This document shows, in pieces, positions 5,938-49,510 of a stretch of DNA of 64,000 nucleotides. Origin of the DNA: an uncultured Actinomycetota bacterium (GTDB taxonomy: Bacteria > Actinomycetota > Actinomycetes > Mycobacteriales > Micromonosporaceae); the NCBI GenBank assembly GCA_963797605.1, contig CAWCPX010000009.1, forward strand, positions 867,950 to 931,949, read 5' to 3'. Positions within the stretch are counted from its first letter, which is position 1; every line of letters begins with the position of its first letter. A model generated the notes under the pieces. It had not been told where the DNA came from. It did not search any database and saw only the letters and a program-made list of their open reading frames with translations. A program made the translations under genes and the position numbers.

Positions 5938-7361
5938 GTACCGTGACGGTGATGCAGGCATACCGGTTCGCGTTGGACCCGTCCCCGGGGCAGGCCCGGG
6001 ATCTGGAGCGCCACGCCGGGGCGGCCAGGTTCGCGTTCAATTGGGCTTTGGCGGCGGTGCGGGTCAACATCGGTCAACGCGCCGCGGAACGCTCCTACGG
6101 CCTTGACGGTGATGAGCTCACCCCGAGTCTGGGATGGAATCTGCCGGCGTTGCGGCGAGTCTGGAACCAGGCCAAGGGCGAGGTTGCCCCGTGGTGGGCG
6201 CAGTGTTCCAAGGAGGCGTTCAACACCGGTCTGGATGGGGTTGCCCGGGCGTTGAAGAACTGGAGCGAGTCCACATCGGGTAAACGTCGCGGCGGCAAGG
6301 TTGGTTTCCCCCGGTTCAAGTCCCGCCGCGCAACGACACCCAGCGTGCGGTTCACTACCGGGACCATTCGCCTCGCCGCTGATCGTCAACATGTGACCCT
6401 GCCGAGGGTCGGCACGATCAAGACCCACGAGTCGACCCGTAAACTCGCCCGCCGCCTTCAGGCCGGGACCGCCCGGATTCTGTCGGCGACGGTGCGCTGC
6501 GAGTGCGGCCGCTGGTACTGCGCGTTCACCGTCGAAGTCGCCCGCCAGGTGCCGGCCCCGGCCCGGGCCGGCGCGGTCGTCGGAGTGGACCTGGGCATCA
6601 CCACCCTGGCCGTGCTGTCCACCGGGCAGGCGGTACCCAACCCACGGCACCTGACCAAAGCTTTGCGCCGGCTGCGTAGGGCTGCCCGTAGGTTGTCCCG
6701 GCGTCACGGCCCCGACCGGCGTACCGGCCAACAACCCTCCGCACGGTGGGAAACCGCGCGCCACGATGTCAACCGCATCCACACCCGGGTGCGGGACCTG
6801 CGCAAAGATGCGCTCCATAAGCTCACCAGCTCTTTGGCGACGACCTACGGCACGGTCGTCGTGGAAGACCTCCACGTCGCCGGGATGCTCACAAACCGCA
6901 GACTAGCCCGACACATCGCGGATGCGTCCTTCGGTGAGATCCGCCGGCAACTCGACTACAAGACCTCCTGGAACGGCGGCCAACTCATCGTCGCCGACCG
7001 GTGGTTCCCCTCCTCCAAAACCTGTTCGGCGTGCGGCCTGGTGAAACCCAAACTGAGCCTCGCGGTCCGAACGTTCACCTGCGAGCACTGCGGTCTGACC
7101 CTCGACCGGGACCTCAACGCCGCGATCAACCTCAAGCACTACGTCGACCTGGAGTGGCCGGGCGACGCTAAAACAGGGCGCGGAGCCGACCAGAAGACCA
7201 AGCCCAGCTTGGCAGGTGGCTATGAAACGCCAACCCCGCACCACCACGGTGGACAAGACAGGGACCGCCGGCTGGAAACAGCCGACTGCGGGCAGAGGCT
7301 TACACATGCTCACTCACTCGCAACGGTACGAGCACTTCGAGCGCGACGACGAGACCGCTGA
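5934..7361 (+). CDS. tnpB: TnpB (RuvC-like, zinc-ribbon, RNA-guided-nuclease family)
   Basis: Track ORF 5853..7361, ATG at 5934 (MSTVTVMQAYRFALDPSPGQ). RuvC residues in VGVDLGITTLAV, VVVEDLHVAGM and DRDLNAAINL. Zinc ribbon CSACG...CEHCG. No internal disruption. Confidence 0.85.
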   Translation: MSTVTVMQAYRFALDPSPGQARDLERHAGAARFAFNWALAAVRVNIGQRAAERSYGLDGDELTPSLGWNLPALRRVWNQAKGEVAPWWAQCSKEAFNTGLDGVARALKNWSESTSGKRRGGKVGFPRFKSRRATTPSVRFTTGTIRLAADRQHVTLPRVGTIKTHESTRKLARRLQAGTARILSATVRCECGRWYCAFTVEVARQVPAPARAGAVVGVDLGITTLAVLSTGQAVPNPRHLTKALRRLRRAARRLSRRHGPDRRTGQQPSARWETARHDVNRIHTRVRDLRKDALHKLTSSLATTYGTVVVEDLHVAGMLTNRRLARHIADASFGEIRRQLDYKTSWNGGQLIVADRWFPSSKTCSACGLVKPKLSLAVRTFTCEHCGLTLDRDLNAAINLKHYVDLEWPGDAKTGRGADQKTKPSLAGGYETPTPHHHGGQDRDRRLETADCGQRLTHAHSLATVRALRARRRDR

Positions 7362-18566: not shown

Positions 18567-18777
18567 GCGCCCTGTCACGCGCGCCCGATGACCGCCGCCG
18601 TCTCCTTCTCCGAGCGCGGCGCCTCGTGATGGATGAAAATCGGCCACGAAAGCGATACATAGTTCCCCGATAGTTTTAGTAGGCATATCGGAGGAGCATC
18701 ATGGTTGCGTTGGCACGTACGCCTTCGCCGCGCCACGGATCCGGCGAAGCTGTCTTACGAAAGTGAGAACGAACTCG

Positions 18778-20465: not shown

Positions 20466-20488
20466 ATCCCTATCACGCCGATAGGGAT
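20466..20488. promoter_or_regulatory. perfect palindrome ATCCCTATC-N5-GATAGGGAT (candidate operator)
   Basis: 9-bp arms. It lies 2 nt after the GST stop and 55 nt before the small ORF at 20543. It is related to the sites at 47649-47671 and 32255-32277. Confidence 0.5.
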
Positions 20489-20542: not shown

Positions 20543-20671
20543 GTGCATACACGAACCGATCTCGTGCTCGCCGCGCCACGGCGCCGACTGCCCTTCTCCC
20601 GTCGCCACATCGATCTGCGGCGCACCGCCAGCGCTCTGTGTCGGGGCTTCGACGCCCCGGTCCTCGGCTGA
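20543..20671 (+). CDS. candidate leader peptide (42 aa) of LLM operon 1
   Basis: AGGAGG sits 8 nt before GTG. VHTRTDLVLAAPRRRLPFSRRHIDLRRTASALCRGFDAPVLG*. The peptide is a paralog of the uORF at 47513..47650. Confidence 0.4.
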   Translation: MHTRTDLVLAAPRRRLPFSRRHIDLRRTASALCRGFDAPVLG

Positions 20672-20765: not shown

Positions 20766-21980
20766 ATGCCCACCCGAACCGGACCACTGCACCTCTCCGT
20801 CGCCCTCGACGGCACCGGCTGGCACCCCGCGGCCTGGCGCGAGCCGCAGGCCCGGCCCGGCCGAGCTGTTCACCGCCGCGTACTGGCTCGACCTCGTCCC
20901 AGGAGGCCGAGCGCGGTCTGCTCGACTTCGTCACCATCGAAGACTCCCTCGGCCTGCAGTCGTCGCGCTACACCGAGCCCGACGACCGCACCGACCAGGT
21001 TCGGGGACGCCTCGACGCGGTCCTCATCGCGGCCCGGGTCGCGCCGCTGACCCACCACATCGGCCTGGTCCCGACCGCCGTCGTCACCCACACCGAGCCG
21101 TTCCACGTCGCCAAGGCCATCGCCACGCTCGACTACGTCAGCACCGGCCGGGCCGGCGTGCGCGTACAGGTATCGGCGCGGCCCGGCGAGGCGGCCCATT
21201 TCGGCCGGCGCGACGTTCCCGACGATCCGGATCGAGGACCGCGACGATCCGGTCGTGCAGCGGCTTGTCGGCGAGCTGTTCGACGAGGCCGCCGACTACG
21301 TCGAGGTGGTGCGGCGGCTCTGGGACAGCTGGGAGGACGACGCCGAGATCCGCGACGTCCGCCACCGGCCGGTTCGTCGATCGCGACAAGCTGCACTACA
21401 TCGACTTCGAGGGCCGAAACTTCCGCGTCAGGGGACCGTCGATCACGCCGCGCCCACCACAGGGCCAGCCGCTCGTCACCGCGCTCGGCCACCAGAGCGT
21501 GCCGTACCAGCTGATCGGCCGGGTCAGCCGACGTCGTCTTCATCACGCCGCGCGACGCCGACCACGCCCGGGCGATCGTCGCCGAGATCCGGGCCGCGCA
21601 GGCCGCGGCCGGTCGGGCCGAGGAGCCGGTCCACGTCTTCGGCGACCTCGTCGTCTTCCTCGACGAGACGCGCGACCGGCGCGACCGACCGCAAGGCCCG
21701 GCTCGACGACCTGGCCGGCGGCGACTACACCAGCGACGCCACGGTCTTCGCCGGCACCGCCGCCCAGCTCGCCGACCTGCTCGAGGACTGGCAGCAAGCC
21801 GGCGTCAGCGGCTACCGGCTGCGCCCCGGCACGGTTCCACACGACCTGGAGGCCATCACCCGCGGGCTCGTGCCGGAACTGCAGCGCCGGGGCGTGTTCC
21901 GCCGCGCCTACGAAGCCGACACCCTGCGCGGCCTGCTCGGCCTGTCCCGCCCCGCCAACCGCTACGCGGCCGCGGCCTGA
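20766..21980 (+). pseudogene. LLM-class (luciferase-like) flavin-dependent oxidoreductase with about six frame changes
   Basis: Seven frame segments join into one continuous LLM protein: MPTRTGPLHLSVALDGTGWHPAAWREPQARP / AELFTAAYWLDLV / QEAERGLLDFVTIEDSLGL...HFGRRDVP / TIRIEDRDDPVVQRLVGELFDEAADYVEVVRRLWDSWEDDAEIRDV / ATGRFVDRDKLHYIDFEGRNFRVRGPSITPRPPQGQP... / DVVFITPRDADHARAIV... / ATGATDRKARLDDLAGG...RPANRYAAAA*. Confidence 0.75.
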
Positions 21981-22052
21981 ATTCGGAGCCCCTCGAGCCT
22001 GTCAGCGAACCATGAACAGCATGGCCGCGCCCTGCGAAGCGGGACGGACATG
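21978..22052 (+). repeat. intercistronic element, copy 1
   Basis: ...GAGCCTGTCAGCGAACCATGAACAGCATGGCCGCGCCCTGCGAAGCGGGACGGACATG runs from the LLM1 stop to the LLM2 start. It is homologous to the tandem copies at 23418-23547. Confidence 0.7.
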
Positions 22053-31391: not shown

Positions 31392-32140
31392 GACGCGGTC
31401 TCCACCTCAGTGCGGGCGATGCGGGGCAGGTCGACGCCGAGGCGAAGCCTCTCGAGGAACAGCACGATGGTCGCGGCCGCGGTCCGGTGGGTGGCGTCGT
31501 TCAACGCGTCGTGTTTGCCACCGTCGATGCTCACGAGCGTGGCTTGGCGAACGGATTCGTACTGCCTGCGGGCCCGATCGAGGGTGCTGATGGTGTCGGC
31601 GGCGCCGTGCAGGCCGAGCACCGGCACGATCACGGCGGCGAGATCGGCATGCGTGAACCACTGTGGTGGCAGCGGATTCGCGAGGGCTCCCCGCTTCACG
31701 TCGGCGTCGGCGCGCAGCCGTCCCTGATGTGTCGGACAGGCCGTACGCTCGGTCAGTTCGGCGTCCCAGTCACCGACGATGACGGGCGACTCCCGGTCGC
31801 GGGTCGGCAGCCCGGCCAGGATGAGCGCGTCGACCTTCACCTGGCCGGTGGCGACGAGCGCGGCCGCGAACAGGGCGCCGCCGTCGGAGCCGATGAGCAC
31901 CTTCGGACCGGGCAGGTCGACATCGGCGAGCAGTCCGGCCACCTGCGCGGGGACGGTGTCATCGCGCGTGGGGTCCGCGACGGCCCGCACCCGGTATCCG
32001 TCGGACGCGATGCGGGTGCCGAATCGTTCGTACACCCCGGCGTGTTCGCCCCGGCCCGGGACGATGATGAGGTTTCCGCGGGCGGCGACCGTCTCCGGAT
32101 TGTTCCAACTGCGGATCGTCTCGGCCTGTTCGGTGGTCAT
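31388..32140 (-). CDS. alpha/beta hydrolase
   Basis: ATG 32140 behind GAAGGA. Nucleophile elbow GSDGG and a C-terminal H in GGKHDAL. The stop overlaps the next start as ATGA. Confidence 0.7.
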   Translation of the reverse strand: MTTEQAETIRSWNNPETVAARGNLIIVPGRGEHAGVYERFGTRIASDGYRVRAVADPTRDDTVPAQVAGLLADVDLPGPKVLIGSDGGALFAAALVATGQVKVDALILAGLPTRDRESPVIVGDWDAELTERTACPTHQGRLRADADVKRGALANPLPPQWFTHADLAAVIVPVLGLHGAADTISTLDRARRQYESVRQATLVSIDGGKHDALNDATHRTAAATIVLFLERLRLGVDLPRIARTEVETAS

Positions 32141-32254
32141 GTGGCGTCCTTCTCGGGATGACGGTCGGCGATAACGGTCGGGTGATGACGGCTGCGGGGG
32201 CGGGGCGCTCGGGTCGGACGGGTGCGCGAATGGCGCGTGACACCTCGGCCGGAA

Positions 32255-32284
32255 TTCCCTACTATGTCTATAAGGATGGTAGAC
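32255..32284 (+). promoter_or_regulatory. shared TTCCCTACTA box plus GTCTA-N9-TAGAC dyad in the hydrolase/LysR divergent region
   Basis: The 10-mer TTCCCTACTA is identical to the one upstream of cysA (38459-38468, minus). TCCCTACTAT-N10-ATG has the same spacing as at 47650. TGACAC-N16-TACTAT is promoter-like. Confidence 0.45.
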
Positions 32285-32354
32285 AATTCTGAGGATGTCC
32301 AATGCTGATGCGTGGTCAGTACCGATCGCGATTCGTCATCGGTCACCGATAGCC

Positions 32355-44966: not shown

Positions 44967-46151
44967 TCAGAGGCCGAGAACGCGGCGTCCACTCGCGAGC
45001 AGGACGGTGTCCTGCTGTGGCGGGTGGACGCGGATACAGAGCGCGTCGCGCAGATGCCGTTCGAGGGCGTGGTGCTTGGAGAGGCCGGGGTTGCCGAGCG
45101 CGGCGACCGCGGCTTGCGTCGCGGCGATCACCGACCGGGCGATGGCGACCTTGATGGCGGACAGTTCCGGCAAGATCGAGGTCTCGCCCGCCTCGACTCG
45201 CAGCAACGCGCCGTGCAGCAGCGTTTCCGCCTGCACGATCTGGAGATCGATCTCGCCCGCGACGGACTGGATCCGTTCGGTCTGCGCGATCGGTTTGCCC
45301 AACGCCGCGGGAACTCGGGTGCGGGCGAACCCGGCGAACGCCGTCCGCGCTGCCCGGGCCACGCCGACGTAGAGCGCTGGATGGCCGAAACCGGCCAGGC
45401 CCGCCATCGCGGCCGGGTCCCGGTAGACCCCGTCAGGGCCACGCGGGATCTCGACGAACGCGTCCGCGGGGAGACGGACGTTCTCGTAGATCACGTCATG
45501 TGTGTTCGAGGCGCGCAGGCCCAGGTGGTCCCACGTGTCGACCCAGGTGATCCCGGGCAGGTCGCCGGGCACGATGACGTGACCGACGCGAGGTCGCTCC
45601 GGGTTGCCACCCGGCTCGTCGGCGACGGCCCAGACGACGTGGTAGGCGAGGCCGGAGCCGCCGCTGGCGTACGCCTTGTGCCCGTTCAGGACCCAACCAT
45701 CGGGCGTGCGGGTGGCGGTCGTCTTCGGTAGGCCCCCGCGAGCGGGAGCACCCAACTCGGGTTCCGCCCGGACCGCGTTGACCAGGGCGGCGCCGGTTTG
45801 CGAGCGTCGCAGCAGATCGTCGTAGTATGCGACCGGCCAGTGCGGGTTGGCCGCCTGGCCGGCGTGGCTCATCAGGGAGTTCGCGGCGAGCAGGGCAACT
45901 GACGCGTCGCCTTCGCCGAGCGCCGTGAGGATGCGGACGATTTCCCGGGGGCCCGCGCCCGGTCCGCCGTACCGCGTGCCGACGGCCGCGGTGAGCAGAC
46001 CCGCCCGGTGCGCGACCTCGAGGCCCCGCCAGGGAATGTCGCCCGTGCGGTCGTACTCGGCAGCCGTCGTCGCGATCTCGGCGGTCACGGCGGCGAGCGC
46101 GTCGTCGGACAGGTCCGGGACGGCGAACGTGACGGTGGACGTGTCGGTCAT
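44967..46151 (-). CDS. acyl-CoA dehydrogenase-fold protein (SfnB/DszC-like sulfur-acquisition oxidoreductase)
   Basis: 394 aa with the ACAD N/M/C layout. The start overlaps the upstream stop as ATGA. It sits between an LLM gene and the ABC importer, as in sfn/ssu-type clusters. Confidence 0.8.
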   Translation of the reverse strand: MTDTSTVTFAVPDLSDDALAAVTAEIATTAAEYDRTGDIPWRGLEVAHRAGLLTAAVGTRYGGPGAGPREIVRILTALGEGDASVALLAANSLMSHAGQAANPHWPVAYYDDLLRRSQTGAALVNAVRAEPELGAPARGGLPKTTATRTPDGWVLNGHKAYASGGSGLAYHVVWAVADEPGGNPERPRVGHVIVPGDLPGITWVDTWDHLGLRASNTHDVIYENVRLPADAFVEIPRGPDGVYRDPAAMAGLAGFGHPALYVGVARAARTAFAGFARTRVPAALGKPIAQTERIQSVAGEIDLQIVQAETLLHGALLRVEAGETSILPELSAIKVAIARSVIAATQAAVAALGNPGLSKHHALERHLRDALCIRVHPPQQDTVLLASGRRVLGL

Positions 46152-47368
46152 GCCCGGGCCGCCGTGGCGTATTCGGCGTATCGGGTGCCGTAGTTGCCCA
46201 GGTTGTCGGCCTGCAGCGGGCCGCGCTGGCCGGTGGCTTTGCGGTGGGCGAGTTCCTGGCGGACCAGTGGCAGCACGTAGCGGCCGTAGTCGACGGCGTC
46301 GGCGAGGGTGTCGTAGCCGCGGATCGAGACCAGGGACGCCCCGCGGTCGACGTAGTCGAGGATCGCCGCGGCGACCGTCTCCGGCGAGCCGACGAGCGCG
46401 GTCGAGGCGCCAGCCGGCGTTGGTCGCCGCGGCGGTCTTCGTCCACAGTGCCCGGTCGTAGAGGTCCGATCGGGCGGCGAATGCGAGCGCGCGCTGCGAG
46501 CCGACGTTCTGCGGTGTGCCCTGGCGGTAGCGCTGCGCCCCGTACCCGGCGGCCTGGAAGGTCTCGGCGATCCTCGCGACGTATTCGTGCGCCTTCTCCC
46601 ACGCGAGTGCGTCGGTCTGGGCGATGATCGGGCGGAAGGTGACCCAGATGCGGGGCAGCGTGGTGCGCCCGGCCGCCCGCGCGATGGCGTGGACGCGGTC
46701 GATCTCGGCACGCAGGTCGTCCAGCGGTTCGCCCCAGAAGCTGAAGATGTCGGCCTGGGCGCCGCCGACCTGGAACGCCTCGTCGGACTGCCCGCCGATC
46801 GAGATCGGGATCGGGCCCGCGAACGGCGCGAATCCCGGTCCGAAGTCGTCGAACTTGTAGAACTCGCCGTCGTGGCTGAACGGAGCCGGCTCGGTCCACG
46901 ACCTGCGCAGGATGTCGATGTACTCGACGGTGCGGGCGTACCGTCGCTATTTGGGCAGGTAGTCGCCCTGGCGGGCCTGCTCGGCGTCGCTGCCGCCGGA
47001 GATGAGGTGCACGACCGCGCGGCCCTCGGTCAGCTGGTCGAGGGTGGCGAGCTTCTGCGCGCCGACCGTCGGGAAGGTCGTGTTCGGTCGCAGGGCGACG
47101 ATCGGGCCGGATCCGTTCGGTCAGGTGGCCGACGCGCGCTGGCGACGACGAACGAGTCGGCGGTGTTGGAGCCGTAGGGAAGCAGCGTGTAGTCGAACCG
47201 CCCGTCTTCCAGGGCTCGGACGTATCGGCGGAAGAACTGCAGGTCGATGCCTCGGGTCGGGATCGGTTCGAGTTCGGTCGACGGGTTCAGGTGCGAGAGG
47301 CTAATGAACTCGACTTCGGGCGACGCGGCCGGGGGGATCGCCTGGTCGAACGTGGGGGTGGCGGTCAT
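46148..47368 (-). pseudogene. SsuD/SfnG-like LLM monooxygenase with three frame changes and an in-frame TAG
   Basis: MTATPTFDQAIPPAASPEVEFISLSHLN...SFVVASA / VGHLTERIR / PIVALRPNTTFPTVGAQKLATLDQLTEGRAVVHLISGGSDAEQARQGDYLPK-TAG-RRYARTVEYIDILRRSW...WTKTAAATNAG / GASTALVGSPETVAAAILDYV...YATAARA*. Confidence 0.75.
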
Positions 47369-47435
47369 GGGGGACCTCTTTCTCTGCGGGCACGCGGCAT
47401 CGCGCCCGTTCGAGCGGGCGGCGGGTGGCGATCGG

Positions 47436-47471
47436 AAAATTGGCCTTCGTCATGCGCGCACAACCGAAGGC
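47436..47471 (-). terminator. terminator-like hairpin inside the operon leader (candidate attenuator)
   Basis: Minus strand GCCTTCG-N15-CGAAGGC followed by CAATTTTCC. It lies 42 nt after the uORF stop and 68 nt before ATG 47368. Confidence 0.4.
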
Positions 47472-47512
47472 GCGCGGGCTCGGGCCCCCGCCGGGCCAGG
47501 GGCTCTACAGGG

Positions 47513-47650
47513 TCAGCGACAACACGCCGCGCTGCGGCGCATGAGGTCAATGACGCGCCGGTGCGTCAGGCGCCTTCGTGACGCCGCGGGCAGGCCGGGA
47601 TCGGTGCACTTCGTCCGCTCGTCGCAGCGGATGCGCTTAATCCCGATCAT
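47513..47650 (-). CDS. candidate Cys-codon leader peptide (45 aa)
   Basis: ATG 47650 sits 7 nt after TATTCT (TANNNT). MIGIKRIRCDERTKCTDPGLPAASRRRLTHRRVIDLMRRSAACCR*. Paralog of the 20543..20671 peptide. Confidence 0.45.
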   Translation of the reverse strand: MIGIKRIRCDERTKCTDPGLPAASRRRLTHRRVIDLMRRSAACCR

Positions 47651-47671
47651 GCCTATCAGAATAGTAGGGAT
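47649..47671 (-). promoter_or_regulatory. ATCCCTA-N7-GATAGG dyad overlapping the uORF start
   Basis: Minus strand ATCCCTActattctGATAGGcAT, nested inside the 8-bp inverted repeat TTAATCCC...GGGATTAA. Confidence 0.45.
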
Positions 47672-47849
47672 TAATGATCGCGTCCAACGCCGATACGCGA
47701 TCGACATCGATCGCGAAGGCTTATCACAGGAGGCGGGGACCGGCGTGCCGGCCCGACGTCACGGGCGATCGTCGGGAGCGGCCACCTGGCTCGCGCCGCA
47801 GGCGACCGCGCACACGACACCGCAGCCTCAGCGGCGGCGAGACCCGTGG

Positions 47850-48020
47850 TCAGCGGGTTCGGCGCGTGACCCGGCTCCGGCCCCGGAACGCGCCGAAGAC
47901 CAACGTGAACGCGAACAGCACGCACGCGATGATGAACAGCCAGAACAGGCCGTGCACGACGAAGCCGATGAGTCCGAGCACGATCCAGACGATGACGAGT
48001 GCCAGCAGAAACGCGATCAC
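47850..48020 (-). CDS. small hydrophobic protein (56 aa, hypothetical)
   Basis: GTG 48020, 15 nt after the PRC-barrel stop. VIAFLLALVIVWIVLGLIGFVVHGLFWLFIIACVLFAFTLVFGAFRGRSRVTRRTR*. Below the ORF-track size cutoff. Confidence 0.35.
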   Translation of the reverse strand: MIAFLLALVIVWIVLGLIGFVVHGLFWLFIIACVLFAFTLVFGAFRGRSRVTRRTR

Positions 48021-48523: not shown

Positions 48524-49339
48524 CTATCGAACGCGGCGGTATTCGACGTGCTTACTCCAGATCTTCACGTGCCGGACGCTCGCACCGGAGTGCGGAGCCT
48601 CCCACCACGTGCCCTTGCCGGCGTAGATGGCGACGTGCGTCGCGTACGACCCCGACATGACGAACACGAGGTCACCGGGGCGTACGTTTTTCGCCGAGAC
48701 CCGGGTTCCGTAGCGCTTCTGCGAGTTCGCCTGGTGTGGCAGCGCGATACCGAAGCGCCCGTAGACGTACTTCACCAGACCGGAACAGTCGAACGAGTGC
48801 GGTCCGGCCGCCCCGTACGCGTACGGGCGGCCCTTCTCCTTCGCGGCCGCCGCGACGATCGCCGGACCGATGTCGGCCGGCTTCGCGACGACGGTGACGC
48901 TCGGAGTGTTGACCGCGTCATAGATCTTCGTGCCCGCCGCCGAAACGGCCGACAGGTCGATCTGATAGCGGTGCGTCACGGTCGGGGTGAACGTGAACGT
49001 CGCCGAACCGCCGGCCGAGAGCGCCTTGGTCGAGACGTACTTCCACCCGGCTTTCGTGTGGACGTAGAACCTCGCCCGTGCCGAGGCCACGGCGGCGCCG
49101 GCTCGGGTCCGCTCGGTCACGGTGAACGTGACCGGGTGTCCCGAGGTGACGCCGGAGTGGTTCGCTACCAGTTTCGCCACCGGAGTGGCGGGTGCCGCGG
49201 AGCCGGCCGTGGTGACGGCGGCGTTCGCCGGGGTGGACCCGACGGTGGCGCCGACGATGCCGGCCGCGGCGAGAGATGCCGTCGCTGCGAGCCGCCGCGC
49301 GTTGGTGGGCGTGCGGCGACCGTGCTCGGGGGTTGACAC
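48524..49339 (-). CDS. C40 (NlpC/P60) family peptidoglycan peptidase
   Basis: Signal peptide, then the catalytic region YAYGAAGPHSFDCSGLVKYVY...GDLVFV...HVAIYAG. Confidence 0.85.
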   Translation of the reverse strand: MSTPEHGRRTPTNARRLAATASLAAAGIVGATVGSTPANAAVTTAGSAAPATPVAKLVANHSGVTSGHPVTFTVTERTRAGAAVASARARFYVHTKAGWKYVSTKALSAGGSATFTFTPTVTHRYQIDLSAVSAAGTKIYDAVNTPSVTVVAKPADIGPAIVAAAAKEKGRPYAYGAAGPHSFDCSGLVKYVYGRFGIALPHQANSQKRYGTRVSAKNVRPGDLVFVMSGSYATHVAIYAGKGTWWEAPHSGASVRHVKIWSKHVEYRRVR

Positions 49340-49344
49340 AGATC

Positions 49345-49510
49345 ATTCCCTTCGGAACGCCTGCGAGGTCAGCTGTCGGGTTCGGGACGAAGGTGCCCGG
49401 CCCGCCGCGTACGGCTTGGCTTCACCCCAAGACGCGGCCGAAAAGCGCCGCGCCGATCGTGGGTTCCCCGCTTCTGCCCGTTGCCCCGTTGTCGACACTG
49501 TGTTGGCGCC
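49345..49510 (-). promoter_or_regulatory. ydaO/yuaA-type cyclic-di-AMP riboswitch (ends approximate)
   Basis: The minus strand contains GCGGGGAACCCA, UGGGGUGAAGCC and CCCGAACCCGACAGCUGACCUCGCAGGCGU. These match the three conserved blocks of the ydaO motif as I recall them from Bacillus subtilis. The element lies directly upstream of the NlpC/P60 RBS. Confidence 0.7.

What the first reader, a model, noticed from the sequence alone, without database searches (positions are those of the whole stretch)
47436..47671. Candidate leaderless Cys-codon uORF with a terminator-like hairpin in the leader of the LLM/SfnB/ABC-importer operon
On the minus strand, TCCCTACTAT-N10-ATG (ATG at 47650, 7 nt after TATTCT) opens a 45-codon ORF: MIGIKRIRCDERTKCTDPGLPAASRRRLTHRRVIDLMRRSAACCR*. 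It has 4 Cys codons, and two adjacent TGT codons sit just before the last sense codon. Forty-two nt after its stop lies GCCTTCG-N15-CGAAGGC followed by CAATTTTCC, the only T-run in this GC-rich leader. The RBS and ATG of the first LLM gene (47368) follow 68 nt later. Every downstream gene is of a sulfur-scavenging type. This is the layout expected of an attenuator that senses Cys-tRNA supply. Polycysteine leaderless short ORFs with that role have been described in mycobacteria. This peptide is longer and has a peptide-level paralog at 20543..20671, which points to an undescribed leader-peptide family.
Basis: partly seen in the sequence, partly recalled or inferred. Interest (0 to 1): 0.75.

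Follow-up and report, generated by a model that had tools for sequence, protein, structure and literature searches.

The report
Cysteine-sensing leader peptide before sulfur-scavenging operon
A conserved 45-codon mini-gene starts right at the promoter of a sulfur-scavenging operon. It is a divergent relative of the cysteine-sensing leader peptides already characterised in mycobacteria, so it is a real regulatory element of a known kind, not a new family.

Summary
The uORF (47650..47513, minus strand) is real and under selection.

- **Orthologs:** they occur in Frankiales, Pseudonocardiales, Acidothermales and Jatrophihabitans. All keep an ATG or GTG 6-7 nt after a conserved -35/-10 promoter, and an ORF of 41-53 codons.
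- **Peptide:** the N-terminus drifts freely. The C-terminal motif LTxRRxIDLxR-x5-C is kept through synonymous changes.
- **Cys codon:** the invariant Cys is TGT in 16 of 16 sequences, against about 18% TGT in genes.
- **Known relatives:** the same motif is in the published M. smegmatis attenuator peptides Ms5788A and Ms4527A. The window's paralog (20543..20671) passes NCBIfam NF042934, "putative leader peptide". The family is therefore described. The candidate belongs to a longer RRVID branch that falls below the curated cut-offs.
- **Terminator reading:** this part is weak. The hairpin plus TTTT is real and is the only one in the window. However, it has only four U after a 3-nt gap and no ribosome-dependent alternative fold. 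Eight of 14 homologous leaders have no T-run at all.
- **Other outputs:** SD occlusion is not predicted either. The C-rich spacers fit Rho-dependent termination.

Verdict: a new member of a known kind. The sensor is well supported. The output step is unresolved.

The parts
47696..47725 (-). Upstream promoter-proximal element: a GATAAGC box (47725..47719) and a perfect 9-bp inverted repeat, CGCGATCGA-TG-TCGATCGCG (47715..47696). It is probably a transcription-factor site, possibly LysR-type.
   Evidence: Inverted repeat I1. The element is conserved at the DNA level in the Pseudofrankia, Actinoplanes, Paractinoplanes and Dactylosporangium loci. LysR genes lie next to several homologous leaders. 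The regulator itself is not identified.
47682..47687 (-). -35 hexamer TTGGAC.
   Evidence: Conserved as (T/C)TGG(A/C)C, 17-19 nt before the -10, in 10 of 13 leaders by a strict pattern. A further two fit with TTGACT.
47658..47663 (-). -10 hexamer TATTCT. It lies 18 nt after the -35 and 7 nt before the ATG.
   Evidence: The base before the start codon is always C and the first base of the start codon is A or G. By general knowledge, this is the usual pyrimidine/purine pattern at a start site.
47652..47668 (-). Operator-like palindrome CCTAC-N7-ATAGG overlapping the -10.
   Evidence: There are exact matches here and at the paralog promoter (20469-20485). Two more sites with one mismatch lie at 18667 and 32258. 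That is 4 found against 0.99 expected. Exact matches also occur at the operon promoter in 16 fetched loci.
47513..47650 (-). Leader-peptide uORF: 45 codons plus TGA. The ATG at 47650 is the predicted transcript 5' end, making it leaderless.
   Evidence: Orthologs keep an ATG or GTG at the same promoter distance and an ORF of 41-53 codons, although the N-terminal sequence drifts.
47516..47569 (-). Conserved C-terminal motif LTHRRVIDLMRRSAACCR, the sensor core.
   Evidence: Codon table: the two Arg columns use 4 and 3 synonymous codons, Asp uses GAC/GAT, and Thr uses ACG/ACC. Close pairs show 0-4 non-synonymous changes in the last 20 codons against 8-14 in the N-terminal part. The motif is shared with Ms5788A (SLTKRRAVDLCRVAGCCCCCCCC) and Ms4527A.
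47519..47524 (-). Regulatory Cys codons TGT TGT. The second one (47521..47519) is the family-invariant Cys, six residues after the conserved Arg.
   Evidence: The invariant position is TGT in 13 of 13 aligned leaders and in three further members. TGT makes up 18% of Cys codons in high-GC3 ORFs of the window and the loci.
47369..47512 (-). Untranslated spacer of 144 nt between the uORF stop and the LLM start. Its C/G ratio is 1.21.
   Evidence: All 14 homologous spacers have C/G of at least 1.21. In 10 of 14, the most C-rich 78-nt stretch is in the top 5% of same-strand windows. For the window it is in the top 9%.
47436..47471 (-). Hairpin GCCUUCG...CGAAGGC with an inner 5-bp stem and a CGCG loop, -13 to -14 kcal/mol, followed by CAA and UUUU (47439..47436).
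   Evidence: It is not reported by the terminator consensus scan. It is not conserved in the family. It forms regardless of the modelled ribosome position.
47366..47378 (-). Shine-Dalgarno GAGG (47378..47375) and the ATG (47368..47366) of the first LLM gene.
   Evidence: The predicted pairing probability of this stretch is 0.35 in the free leader and 0.55 with a ribosome on the Cys codons, so no occlusion is relieved by stalling.
46148..47368 (-). First operon gene, an alkanesulfonate-monooxygenase-like LLM. In this assembly it is interrupted by two frame changes, near 47135-47105 and near 46415.
   Evidence: tblastn with the L004 ortholog gives three segments in different frames. The C-terminal piece hits NF001939/TIGR03565 weakly. 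The truncated 112-aa product is on record from a 987,560-bp contig.
20543..20671 (+). Paralogous leader peptide of 42 codons. Its GTG is preceded by AGGAGG, and it sits upstream of a second LLM gene (ATG 20767).
   Evidence: NF042934 scores 31.3 and 33.2 bits against a cut-off of 27. Sequence. The downstream LLM also shows frame changes.

Best explanation
The region 47725..47366 (minus strand) is a two-layer control region for the operon LLM / SfnB-like / ABC importer / LLM.

**Layer 1, transcription.** A sigma-70-type promoter (TTGGAC, 18 nt, TATTCT) is flanked by conserved protein-binding palindromes.

**Layer 2, the uORF sensor.** Transcription is predicted to start at the A of ATG 47650, so the mRNA begins directly with a 45-codon leader ORF. 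Ribosomes read through a sequence-unconstrained N-terminal half. They then translate the conserved LTHRRVIDLMRRSAACCR. The two UGU codons three and two codons before the stop (the second is the family-invariant one) make progress depend on charged Cys-tRNA.
- When cysteine is plentiful, the ribosome terminates and leaves. The 144-nt spacer is then bare and expression of the operon is attenuated.
- When cysteine is scarce, the ribosome stays parked on the 3' end of the uORF and attenuation is relieved.

**What is shown and what is inferred.** Shown here are the ORF, its conservation and coding-type selection, the promoter geometry, homology to characterised mycobacterial Cys attenuator peptides, and the sulfur-acquisition gene context. 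Inferred are the transcription start, the Cys response, and the output step.

**Output step.** I favour premature transcription termination in the spacer, at about 0.4. At family level this would be Rho-dependent, as at the E. coli tna operon. In this genome it may be helped by the hairpin-UUUU. I rank this above SD occlusion of the Ms5788A type.
For: - **Real sequence features:**
- **Orthologous and paralogous leaders:** they were found in Pseudofrankia, a Pseudonocardiales MAG, Acidothermaceae, Parafrankia, Pseudonocardia, Jatrophihabitans, Streptomyces and metagenomes.
- **Start codon:** it is fixed 6-7 nt after the -10, and one ortholog has ATG replaced by GTG.
- **Coding-type conservation:** the C-terminal motif is kept through synonymous changes while the N-terminus drifts.
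- **Invariant TGT:** 16 of 16, against an 18% background.
- **Family size:** a profile search finds 67 cluster representatives at E <= 1e-3, nearly all 22-100 aa, with the motif close to the C-terminus. In 60 of 75 members the stop lies 1-3 codons after the invariant Cys.
- **Known relatives:** the motif is present in Ms5788A. For that peptide, start-codon, frameshift and deletion mutants showed cysteine-responsive attenuation. It is also present in Ms4527A, whose downstream protein rose on cysteine limitation.
- **Ribosome stalling:** M. tuberculosis homologs hold ribosomes stalled at Cys codons when tRNA-Cys is depleted.
- **Paralog:** it passes NCBIfam NF042934.
- **Downstream genes:** they match SfnB-like, TIGR04028 and TIGR04027 cluster proteins, with a CysA-type ATPase just beyond.
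- **Spacers:** all are C-rich and long, 94-476 nt.
- **Earlier proposal:** Rho-dependent, tna-like control was already suggested for actinobacterial Cys leader peptides that lack terminators.
Against: - There are no expression data for this organism. The transcription start and translation are inferred.
- The candidate scores below every NCBIfam leader-peptide cut-off: 11.1 bits against 27, and 12.5 against 45.
- The leader fold is no more stable than shuffles, z = -0.62.
- No ribosome-position-dependent structural switch is predicted, either for the hairpin or for the SD.
- The window's spacer is the least C-skewed of the family. Its best stretch is only in the top 9%.
- Many orthologous operons do without the uORF. 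They use the same promoter with a leaderless or short-leader LLM, so transcription-factor control alone can suffice.
- The first structural gene is frameshifted in this assembly.
Confidence: 0.62

Rival explanations
1. Classical ribosome-mediated transcription attenuation. The hairpin 47471..47443 plus UUUU is an intrinsic terminator. Its formation is prevented when a ribosome stalls on the Cys codons.
For: - The hairpin is real, at -13 to -14 kcal/mol.
- It is followed by the only T-run of the leader.
- It is the only perfect 7-bp stem followed by TTTT in 128 kb of both strands.
- Two uORF segments are complementary to parts of it: 47578..47570 with the 5' arm (9 bp), and 47544..47537 with 47457..47450 (8 bp).
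Against: - It has only four U, separated from the stem by CAA, and the consensus scan does not call it.
- The stem is predicted at P = 0.8-0.94 for every modelled ribosome boundary, so no antiterminator depends on stalling at Cys rather than at the stop.
- The Cys codons lie only 2-3 codons before the stop, which leaves 6-9 nt of positional difference.
- The two complementary uORF segments would cross each other. They would also be free in both states.
- Eight of 14 homologous leaders have no T-run of 3 or more.
- The closest relative, L081, is cut off 24 nt after the stop, so covariation could not be tested.
Confidence: 0.2
2. Translational attenuation as shown for Ms5788A. The vacated 3' end of the uORF pairs with the Shine-Dalgarno region of the LLM gene, and a stalled ribosome frees it.
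For: - The peptide is homologous to Ms5788A. For Ms5788A this mechanism was shown by compensatory mutations.
- A 6-nt complement exists between GACCUC (the Asp-Leu codons) and GAGGUC at the SD, by direct reading.
Against: - The predicted pairing of the SD and start region is low in the free leader (0.35). It rises, rather than falls, with a ribosome on the Cys codons (0.55).
- No consistent shift is seen in 12 leaders.
- The Asp codon is GAT in four of eleven non-redundant leaders, which removes that complement.
- Only two Cys codons are present, so there is no long UGY tract to pair with an SD.
- Canestrari et al. state that the mechanism at the other loci is undetermined.
Confidence: 0.15
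3. The ORF is a by-product of a conserved promoter and operator region, or it encodes a small protein acting in trans. On this view, regulation of the operon is entirely by transcription factors.
For: - The first codons (ATG ATC GGG) overlap DNA that is conserved even in loci without a uORF.
- Many orthologous operons have the same promoter and no leader peptide.
- Conserved palindromes flank the promoter.
Against: - The conserved part of the peptide lies 80-135 nt downstream of the promoter.
- Its variation is concentrated at third codon positions.
- The frame and length are kept while the N-terminal sequence changes.
- Homologs precede different sulfur-related first genes: an LLM, an alpha/beta hydrolase, and an NMT1/SsuA-like binding protein.
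- Related mycobacterial peptides act in cis.
Confidence: 0.06

Closest known systems
Ms5788A / Rv0815A polycysteine leaderless sORF attenuator of mycobacteria (Canestrari et al. 2020; NCBIfam NF042933)
   Same: - Both are short ORFs at the 5' end of a sulfur/cysteine operon and start at a promoter-proximal RTG.
- They share the peptide core: L-T-x-R-R-x-(V/I)-D-L-x-R, then Cys codons next to the stop.
- Ms5788A reads SLTKRRAVDLCRVAGCCCCCCCC. The candidate reads RLTHRRVIDLMRRSAACCR.
   Different: - The candidate has 45 codons rather than 30.
- It has two Cys codons at the end rather than eight.
- It scores 12.5 bits against a cut-off of 45.
- No Cys-tract/SD duplex is predicted.
- The downstream operon is LLM/SfnB/ABC importer, not cysA2-type genes.
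- The host is a non-mycobacterial actinomycete.
NCBIfam NF042934 cis_reg_atten, "putative leader peptide" (the LLTSRRHIDLGRTSSAICRP type), and NF042936, the Ms4527A family
   Same: - They share the same motif and spacing: RR-x-(I/V)-D-L-x-R-x5-C, with the stop 1-3 codons later.
- The window's own paralog at 20543..20671 is a member.
- They also occur before LLM and sulfonate-binding-protein genes.
   Different: - The candidate has Val rather than His after RR and belongs to a longer branch. The median length is about 47-48 aa, against about 34 for the His type.
- It scores 11.1 bits against a cut-off of 27, so annotation pipelines would miss it.
- Other RRVID-type members also fall below the cut-offs.
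TnaC / tna operon of E. coli (arrest peptide controlling Rho-dependent termination)
   Same: - Both have a conserved leader-peptide sequence at a fixed distance from the stall site near the stop codon.
- Both have a long untranslated spacer before the structural genes.
- No convincing intrinsic terminator is conserved in the family.
- This analogy was proposed for actinobacterial Cys leaders by Seliverstov et al. 2005.
   Different: - TnaC senses free tryptophan at the peptidyl-transferase centre. Here, Cys-tRNA supply at a UGU codon is the more likely signal.
- Rho dependence and rut sites are untested.
- There is no sequence similarity.
uORFC-8-2 motif upstream of cysS in Rhodobacterales (Brewer et al. 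2021)
   Same: A uORF with two tandem Cys codons, followed by a stem and a U-run, read as a Cys-tRNA-sensing transcription attenuator.
   Different: - It comes from a different phylum.
- Its Cys codons sit inside the first stem, UGC dominates, and a conserved terminator is present.
- In the present family the invariant codon is UGU, and the terminator is not conserved.

Membership tests
Mycobacterial polycysteine leaderless sORF attenuators (Canestrari 2020) | The ORF begins at the transcript 5' end (5' AUG or GUG, no Shine-Dalgarno). | tested here: inconclusive
   The geometry fits. The layout is -35 TTGGAC, 18 nt, -10 TATTCT, 7 nt, ATG, and no SD is present. The same geometry holds in 12-13 related leaders, and one has ATG replaced by GTG. 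The start site itself cannot be mapped with these tools.
Mycobacterial polycysteine leaderless sORF attenuators (Canestrari 2020) | At least two consecutive Cys codons, near the 3' end of the sORF. | tested here: met
   TGT TGT at 47524..47519, codons 43-44 of 45.
Mycobacterial polycysteine leaderless sORF attenuators (Canestrari 2020) | Located upstream of, and co-oriented with, an operon for cysteine or sulfur metabolism. | tested here: met
   Downstream on the same strand lie an alkanesulfonate-monooxygenase-like LLM, an SfnB-like oxidoreductase, a TIGR04028-like binding protein, Opp/Nik-type permeases and ATPase, a TIGR04027-like LLM, and then a CysA-type ATPase.
Mycobacterial polycysteine leaderless sORF attenuators (Canestrari 2020) | The Cys-coding tract pairs with the SD region of the next gene (shown for Ms5788A only). 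| tested here: not met
   SD and start pairing probability is 0.35 in the free leader and 0.55 with a stalled ribosome. No consistent change is seen in 12 leaders. This is thermodynamic prediction only.
Mycobacterial polycysteine leaderless sORF attenuators (Canestrari 2020) | Downstream expression rises on cysteine limitation and depends on uORF translation and on the Cys codons. | not testable with these tools
   This needs reporter fusions or proteomics in the host organism.
NCBIfam NF042933 (Ms5788A family) / NF042936 (Ms4527A family) | HMM score at or above the curated cut-off of 45 bits. | tested here: not met
   NF042933 scores 12.5 bits (E = 0.088) on the C-terminal 20 residues. NF042936 gives no hit.
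NCBIfam NF042934 cis_reg_atten (putative leader peptide) | HMM score at or above the curated cut-off of 27 bits. | tested here: not met
   The candidate scores 11.1 bits (E = 0.24). The paralog at 20543..20671 scores 31.3-33.2 bits and is a member.
Actinobacterial LTxRRx(I/V)DLxR-x5-C leader-peptide superfamily (the union of the three NCBIfam models) | The motif with invariant spacing lies at the C-terminus of a short ORF, with the stop within a few codons of the invariant Cys. | tested here: met
   The alignments give invariant R31, R32, D35 and C44. A profile built from the family scores the candidate ORF at 39.7 bits. The published Ms5788A and Ms4527A sequences carry the motif. In 60 of 75 members the stop is 1-3 codons after the invariant Cys.
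Classical leader-peptide transcription attenuator (trp/his type) | An intrinsic terminator: a G+C-rich stem directly followed by a U-tract. | tested here: inconclusive
   A 7+5-bp stem is present at -13 to -14 kcal/mol. However, it has only four U after a 3-nt gap, and the consensus scan does not report it.
Classical leader-peptide transcription attenuator (trp/his type) | A mutually exclusive antiterminator, chosen according to where the ribosome sits. | tested here: not met
   The terminator stem probability is 0.8-0.94 for all 5' boundaries from 47515 to 47487. These include the boundaries for a ribosome on Cys1, on Cys2 and on the stop.
Classical leader-peptide transcription attenuator (trp/his type) | The terminator is conserved in homologous leaders. 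| tested here: not met
   Eight of 14 leaders have no T-run of 3 or more in the spacer.
tna-type Rho-dependent attenuation | A C-rich, G-poor untranslated stretch after the leader stop (a rut-like site). | tested here: inconclusive
   The window spacer has C/G 1.21, and its best 78-nt stretch reaches 1.48, in the top 9%. Ten of 14 homologous spacers are in the top 5%.
tna-type Rho-dependent attenuation | Termination depends on Rho and is blocked by the stalled ribosome. | not testable with these tools
   This needs Rho inhibition or depletion together with 3'-end mapping.

The most novel reading that the evidence does not exclude
The conserved core of this pan-actinobacterial family may not be a polycysteine tract. 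It may instead be an arrest-type nascent peptide, LTxRRx(I/V)DLxR, placed exactly six residues before one invariant, wobble-decoded UGU codon next to the stop.

On this reading the peptide in the exit tunnel slows or holds the ribosome. A single Cys codon then suffices as a sensor of Cys-tRNA, or the ribosome senses free cysteine or a related metabolite as TnaC senses tryptophan. The output would be Rho-dependent termination rather than SD occlusion.

The window's 45-codon RRVID form would be a distinct, unannotated branch of that family. It would have been inserted between a leaderless promoter and the LLM gene.
Probability: 0.3. Interest if true: 0.7.

Novelty: new member of a known kind. 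Interest (0 to 1): 0.4.

Why it matters
- **Reach of the mechanism.** The cysteine-responsive leader-peptide mechanism, so far worked out in mycobacteria, also reaches Frankiales-, Pseudonocardiales- and Streptomyces-type actinomycetes. It also reaches organosulfur-scavenging operons (LLM/SfnB/ABC importer), not only cysteine biosynthesis.
- **Annotation gap.** A whole branch, the RRVID type of about 47 aa, falls below the current NCBIfam cut-offs and is therefore not annotated.
- **Testable features not found in the open-access literature held here.** Two family-wide features stand out:
  1. A non-Cys peptide motif lies at fixed spacing from a single invariant Cys.
  2. That Cys uses the rare UGU codon exclusively.
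  Both point to a role for the nascent peptide and for decoding kinetics, and simple reporter mutants could test this.
- **Limits.** The proposed terminator mechanism is the least secure part.

Tried and rejected
- **Rfam.** The gathering search on the whole window and the E-value search on 47300-47950 found nothing in the leader, only chance snoRNA hits. A known riboswitch such as SAM-IV is therefore unlikely.
- **Consensus promoter and terminator scan.** It found 0 promoters and 0 terminators. The promoter was recognised only by comparison with orthologs.
- **Whole-leader fold.** z = -0.62, so it is uninformative.
- **Single-peptide homology search.** No candidates. An alignment query was needed.
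- **Metagenome DNA-pattern scan for the motif.** It gave one hit, a chance match inside a methyltransferase-like gene.
- **tblastn against plasmids.** No match.
- **Search for closer relatives, to test hairpin covariation.** The best LLM N-terminus hits are 78% identical or less, apart from the window's own product. The closest leader, L081, is truncated 24 nt after the stop.
- **Source record of the window.** It could not be retrieved.
- **SD-occlusion model.** No consistent effect.
- **Hairpin-cascade antiterminator idea.** Not supported.
- **Pairing of uORF segments with the hairpin.** The segments exist. However, they cross each other and would be free in both states, so I rejected them as a switch.
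- **C/G skew as evidence for Rho.** I kept this only as a family-level tendency, because the coding strand of downstream genes is also C-rich in the window.
- **McbR-type operator (TAGAC-N6-GTCTA).** I considered it for the GTCTAC-N7-GTAGAC variants of the operator. I rejected it because the half-sites face the other way (from memory of the McbR motif, not tested).
Full report
**1. The observation**

- TCCCTACTAT lies at 47670..47661 and ATG at 47650.
- The -10-like TATTCT (47663..47658) ends 7 nt before the ATG.
- The ORF has 45 codons, MIGIKRIRCDERTKCTDPGLPAASRRRLTHRRVIDLMRRSAACCR, and ends at TGA 47515..47513.
- There are four Cys codons. TGT TGT sits at 47524..47519, just before the last sense codon.
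- A 7-bp inverted repeat, GCCTTCG-N15-CGAAGGC (47471..47443), is followed by CAATTTTCC.
- GAGG and the ATG of the first LLM gene (47368) follow.

The mechanical ORF list extends the frame to an ATG at 47707, giving 64 aa. That ATG lies upstream of the -35 box. The paralog at 20543..20671 is also as described.

**2. Not a known RNA family, and not found by simple scans**

Rfam finds nothing in the leader. The consensus promoter and terminator scan finds nothing. The whole leader folds no better than shuffled sequence, z = -0.62. Single-sequence evidence is therefore weak, and the case rests on comparison with other genomes.

**3. The peptide belongs to a described superfamily**

- The paralog passes NCBIfam NF042934, "putative leader peptide" (cis_reg_atten), at 31-33 bits against a cut-off of 27. 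It also touches NF042936, the Ms4527A family.
- The candidate reaches only 11.1 bits on NF042934 and 12.5 bits on NF042933, the Ms5788A family.
- The supplement of Canestrari et al. 2020 gives the mycobacterial sequences. Ms5788A is VSTRLELSLTKRRAVDLCRVAGCCCCCCCC and Ms4527A is VTSARNSITGSLVARRHVDKRVCSCCCLP.
- Ms5788A carries the same L-T-x-R-R-x-(V/I)-D-L-x-R core, followed by Cys codons, as the candidate (RLTHRRVIDLMRRSAACCR). Ms4527A carries a reduced form of it, L-V-A-R-R-H-V-D-K-R, with different spacing to the Cys codons.
- Ms5788A is the peptide for which start-codon, frameshift, deletion and compensatory-pairing mutants established cysteine-responsive attenuation.
- M. tuberculosis homologs hold stalled ribosomes at Cys codons when tRNA-Cys is depleted.

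The candidate is a divergent member that the curated models miss, as they miss other RRVID-type members.

**4. Orthologs and selection**

A genome scan with the SfnB-like protein gave 80 loci. The best were 82-85% identical at the protein level, and the window's own species was absent. Motif and profile searches then found leader peptides in these sources:
- Pseudofrankia (L002)
- a Pseudonocardiales MAG (L004)
- Parafrankia (L014)
- Acidothermaceae (L032)
- Pseudonocardia (L035, L084)
- Jatrophihabitans (L086)
- Streptomyces (L085, two copies)
- several metagenome contigs

A profile search of 1.84 billion representatives found 67 at E <= 1e-3, almost all 22-100 aa.

The codon alignment is decisive for translation.
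- The two invariant Arg columns use four and three synonymous codons.
- Asp alternates GAC/GAT, Thr ACG/ACC and Val GTC/GTG.
- In close pairs the N-terminal 25 codons take 8-14 non-synonymous changes, while the last 20 codons take 0-4.
- Even so, ORF length stays at 41-53 codons.

The invariant Cys, six residues after the conserved Arg, is TGT in all 16 sequences examined. TGT accounts for only about 18% of Cys codons in genes of the window and the loci. Across 75 members:
- 43 have a single Cys in the tail.
- 23 have adjacent CC.
- In 60, the stop follows within 1-3 codons.

Polycysteine is thus not the hallmark of the family. The hallmark is the peptide motif plus one UGU codon next to the stop.

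**5. The leaderless start**

All uORF-bearing leaders share the layout -35 (T/C)TGG(A/C)C, 17-19 nt, -10 NANNNT, 6-7 nt, ATG or GTG. The base before the start codon is always C. No SD precedes ATG 47650. This supports a start at the transcript 5' end, but it remains an inference.

Many orthologous operons use the same promoter with no uORF. These are in Actinoplanes, Dactylosporangium, Lentzea, Umezawaea and Amycolatopsis. In them the LLM itself starts at, or within about 35 nt of, the predicted start site. The uORF plus spacer therefore looks like an optional module added behind a promoter that is already regulated.

**6. The output step**

*The hairpin.* The hairpin plus UUUU is genuine, at -13 to -14 kcal/mol. 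It is the only perfect 7-bp stem followed by TTTT in both strands of the window. As an attenuator terminator it is unconvincing, for four reasons:
- It has four U after a 3-nt gap.
- The predicted stem probability is 0.8-0.94 whether the modelled ribosome sits on Cys1, Cys2 or the stop.
- The two uORF segments complementary to it cross each other and would be free in both states.
- Eight of 14 homologous leaders have no T-run of 3 or more.

*SD occlusion.* SD occlusion of the Ms5788A type is not predicted. SD pairing is 0.35 in the free leader and 0.55 with a stalled ribosome, and there is no consistent shift in 12 leaders.

*What the family shares.* The shared features are a stall site 1-3 codons from the stop and a long spacer of 94-476 nt that is C-rich. 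C/G is 1.21-2.15 in 14 of 14 leaders, and 10 of 14 are in the top 5% of same-strand windows. The window is only in the top 9%.

*My ranking.* This pattern fits the tna-like, Rho-dependent idea raised for actinobacterial Cys leaders in 2005. It also fits later evidence that Rho and translated uORFs shape premature termination in M. tuberculosis (cited). I therefore rank termination in the spacer first, at about 0.4: Rho-dependent, possibly hairpin-assisted in this genome. A purely intrinsic-terminator attenuator comes next at 0.2, and SD occlusion at 0.15.

**7. Context**

Downstream genes match an SfnB-like oxidoreductase, a TIGR04028-type binding protein, Opp/Nik-type permeases and ATPase, and a TIGR04027-type LLM. 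A CysA-type ATPase follows. All scores are below the equivalog cut-offs, but the set forms a recognised sulfur-acquisition gene cluster.

The first LLM gene has two frame changes in this assembly, and the LLM after the paralog has several. The truncated product is on record from a 987,560-bp contig. The uORF frame itself agrees with its orthologs from start to stop.

**8. Verdict**

The Cys-sensing, probably leaderless, leader-peptide reading is well supported by homology and by comparative genomics. The terminator layout is not. The claim of a new family is refuted.

It is a new, unannotated member of a known kind. A residual novel angle concerns the role of the conserved non-Cys motif and of the invariant UGU codon. 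I found nothing on either in the literature held here.

Noticed in passing
window 47652-47668, 20469-20485, 18667-18683, 32258-32274: An operator-like palindrome, CCTAY-N7-RTAGG, overlaps the -10 of four promoters in the window: 4 sites found against 0.99 expected. It matches exactly at the LLM/SfnB operon promoter in 16 fetched loci. This suggests a shared, unidentified repressor of a sulfur-scavenging regulon. An Rrf2 gene lies next to the Streptomyces leader, and LysR genes lie next to others.
   Followed up: partly
window 47696-47725: A GATAAGC box and a perfect 9-bp inverted repeat, CGCGATCGA-TG-TCGATCGCG, lie just upstream of the -35. They are conserved at the DNA level in distant genera, including loci that lack the uORF. 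This is probably an activator site, possibly LysR-type.
   Followed up: partly
L015-L017, L022, L024, L028, L030, L034 (about 2700-2830 in each): In many orthologous operons the same TTGGAC/-10 promoter is followed directly by the start codon of the LLM gene, giving a leaderless LLM. In L024 the LLM even begins ATGATAGG, like the uORF. The uORF plus spacer therefore looks like a module inserted behind a leaderless promoter.
   Followed up: partly
window 47519-47521 and the homologous codon in 15 other leaders: The family-invariant Cys is always encoded by TGT, although TGC is about 4.5 times more frequent in these genomes. Neighbouring Cys codons use both. The reason is unexplained. It could be slower wobble decoding or an RNA-level constraint on UGUCGC.
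   Followed up: partly
window 46148-47368 and 20767-22000: Both LLM genes that follow the two leader peptides are broken by frame changes, two in the first and several in the second. This may reflect indel errors in the assembly, or pseudogenes.
   Followed up: partly
window 32139-32335 (minus strand): A third promoter of the same type (TTGGAC, 18 nt, CATCCT, operator with one mismatch) has ATA where the others have ATG. It has no leader peptide, and a C-rich leader of about 110 nt runs to a gene starting at ATG 32139.
   Followed up: no
L085 1052-1160 (minus strand): A second family member in the Streptomyces locus, MGRMDADQRLVTRDHIDFGRVWSAACCA, lies upstream of an LLM gene. Directly abutting its start codon is a four-codon ORF, ATG TGC TGC TGA (Met-Cys-Cys-stop).
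   Followed up: no
window 49343-49507 (minus strand): A c-di-AMP riboswitch (ydaO/yuaA, 49 bits against a gathering score of 38) lies upstream of the ORF 48524..49339. By eye, that ORF's sequence looks like an NlpC/P60 cell-wall hydrolase. This is a known arrangement in actinobacteria.
   Followed up: no
window 7224-7290 (plus strand): Rfam Transposase-2 RNA match, 51.6 bits against a gathering score of 42.7.
   Followed up: no
window 47570-47578 / 47465-47473 and 47537-47544 / 47450-47457: Two uORF segments are perfectly complementary to parts of the downstream hairpin: 9 bp to its 5' arm and 8 bp to its loop and inner 3' side. The two pairings cross each other, and their significance is unclear in such G+C-rich sequence.
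   Followed up: partly
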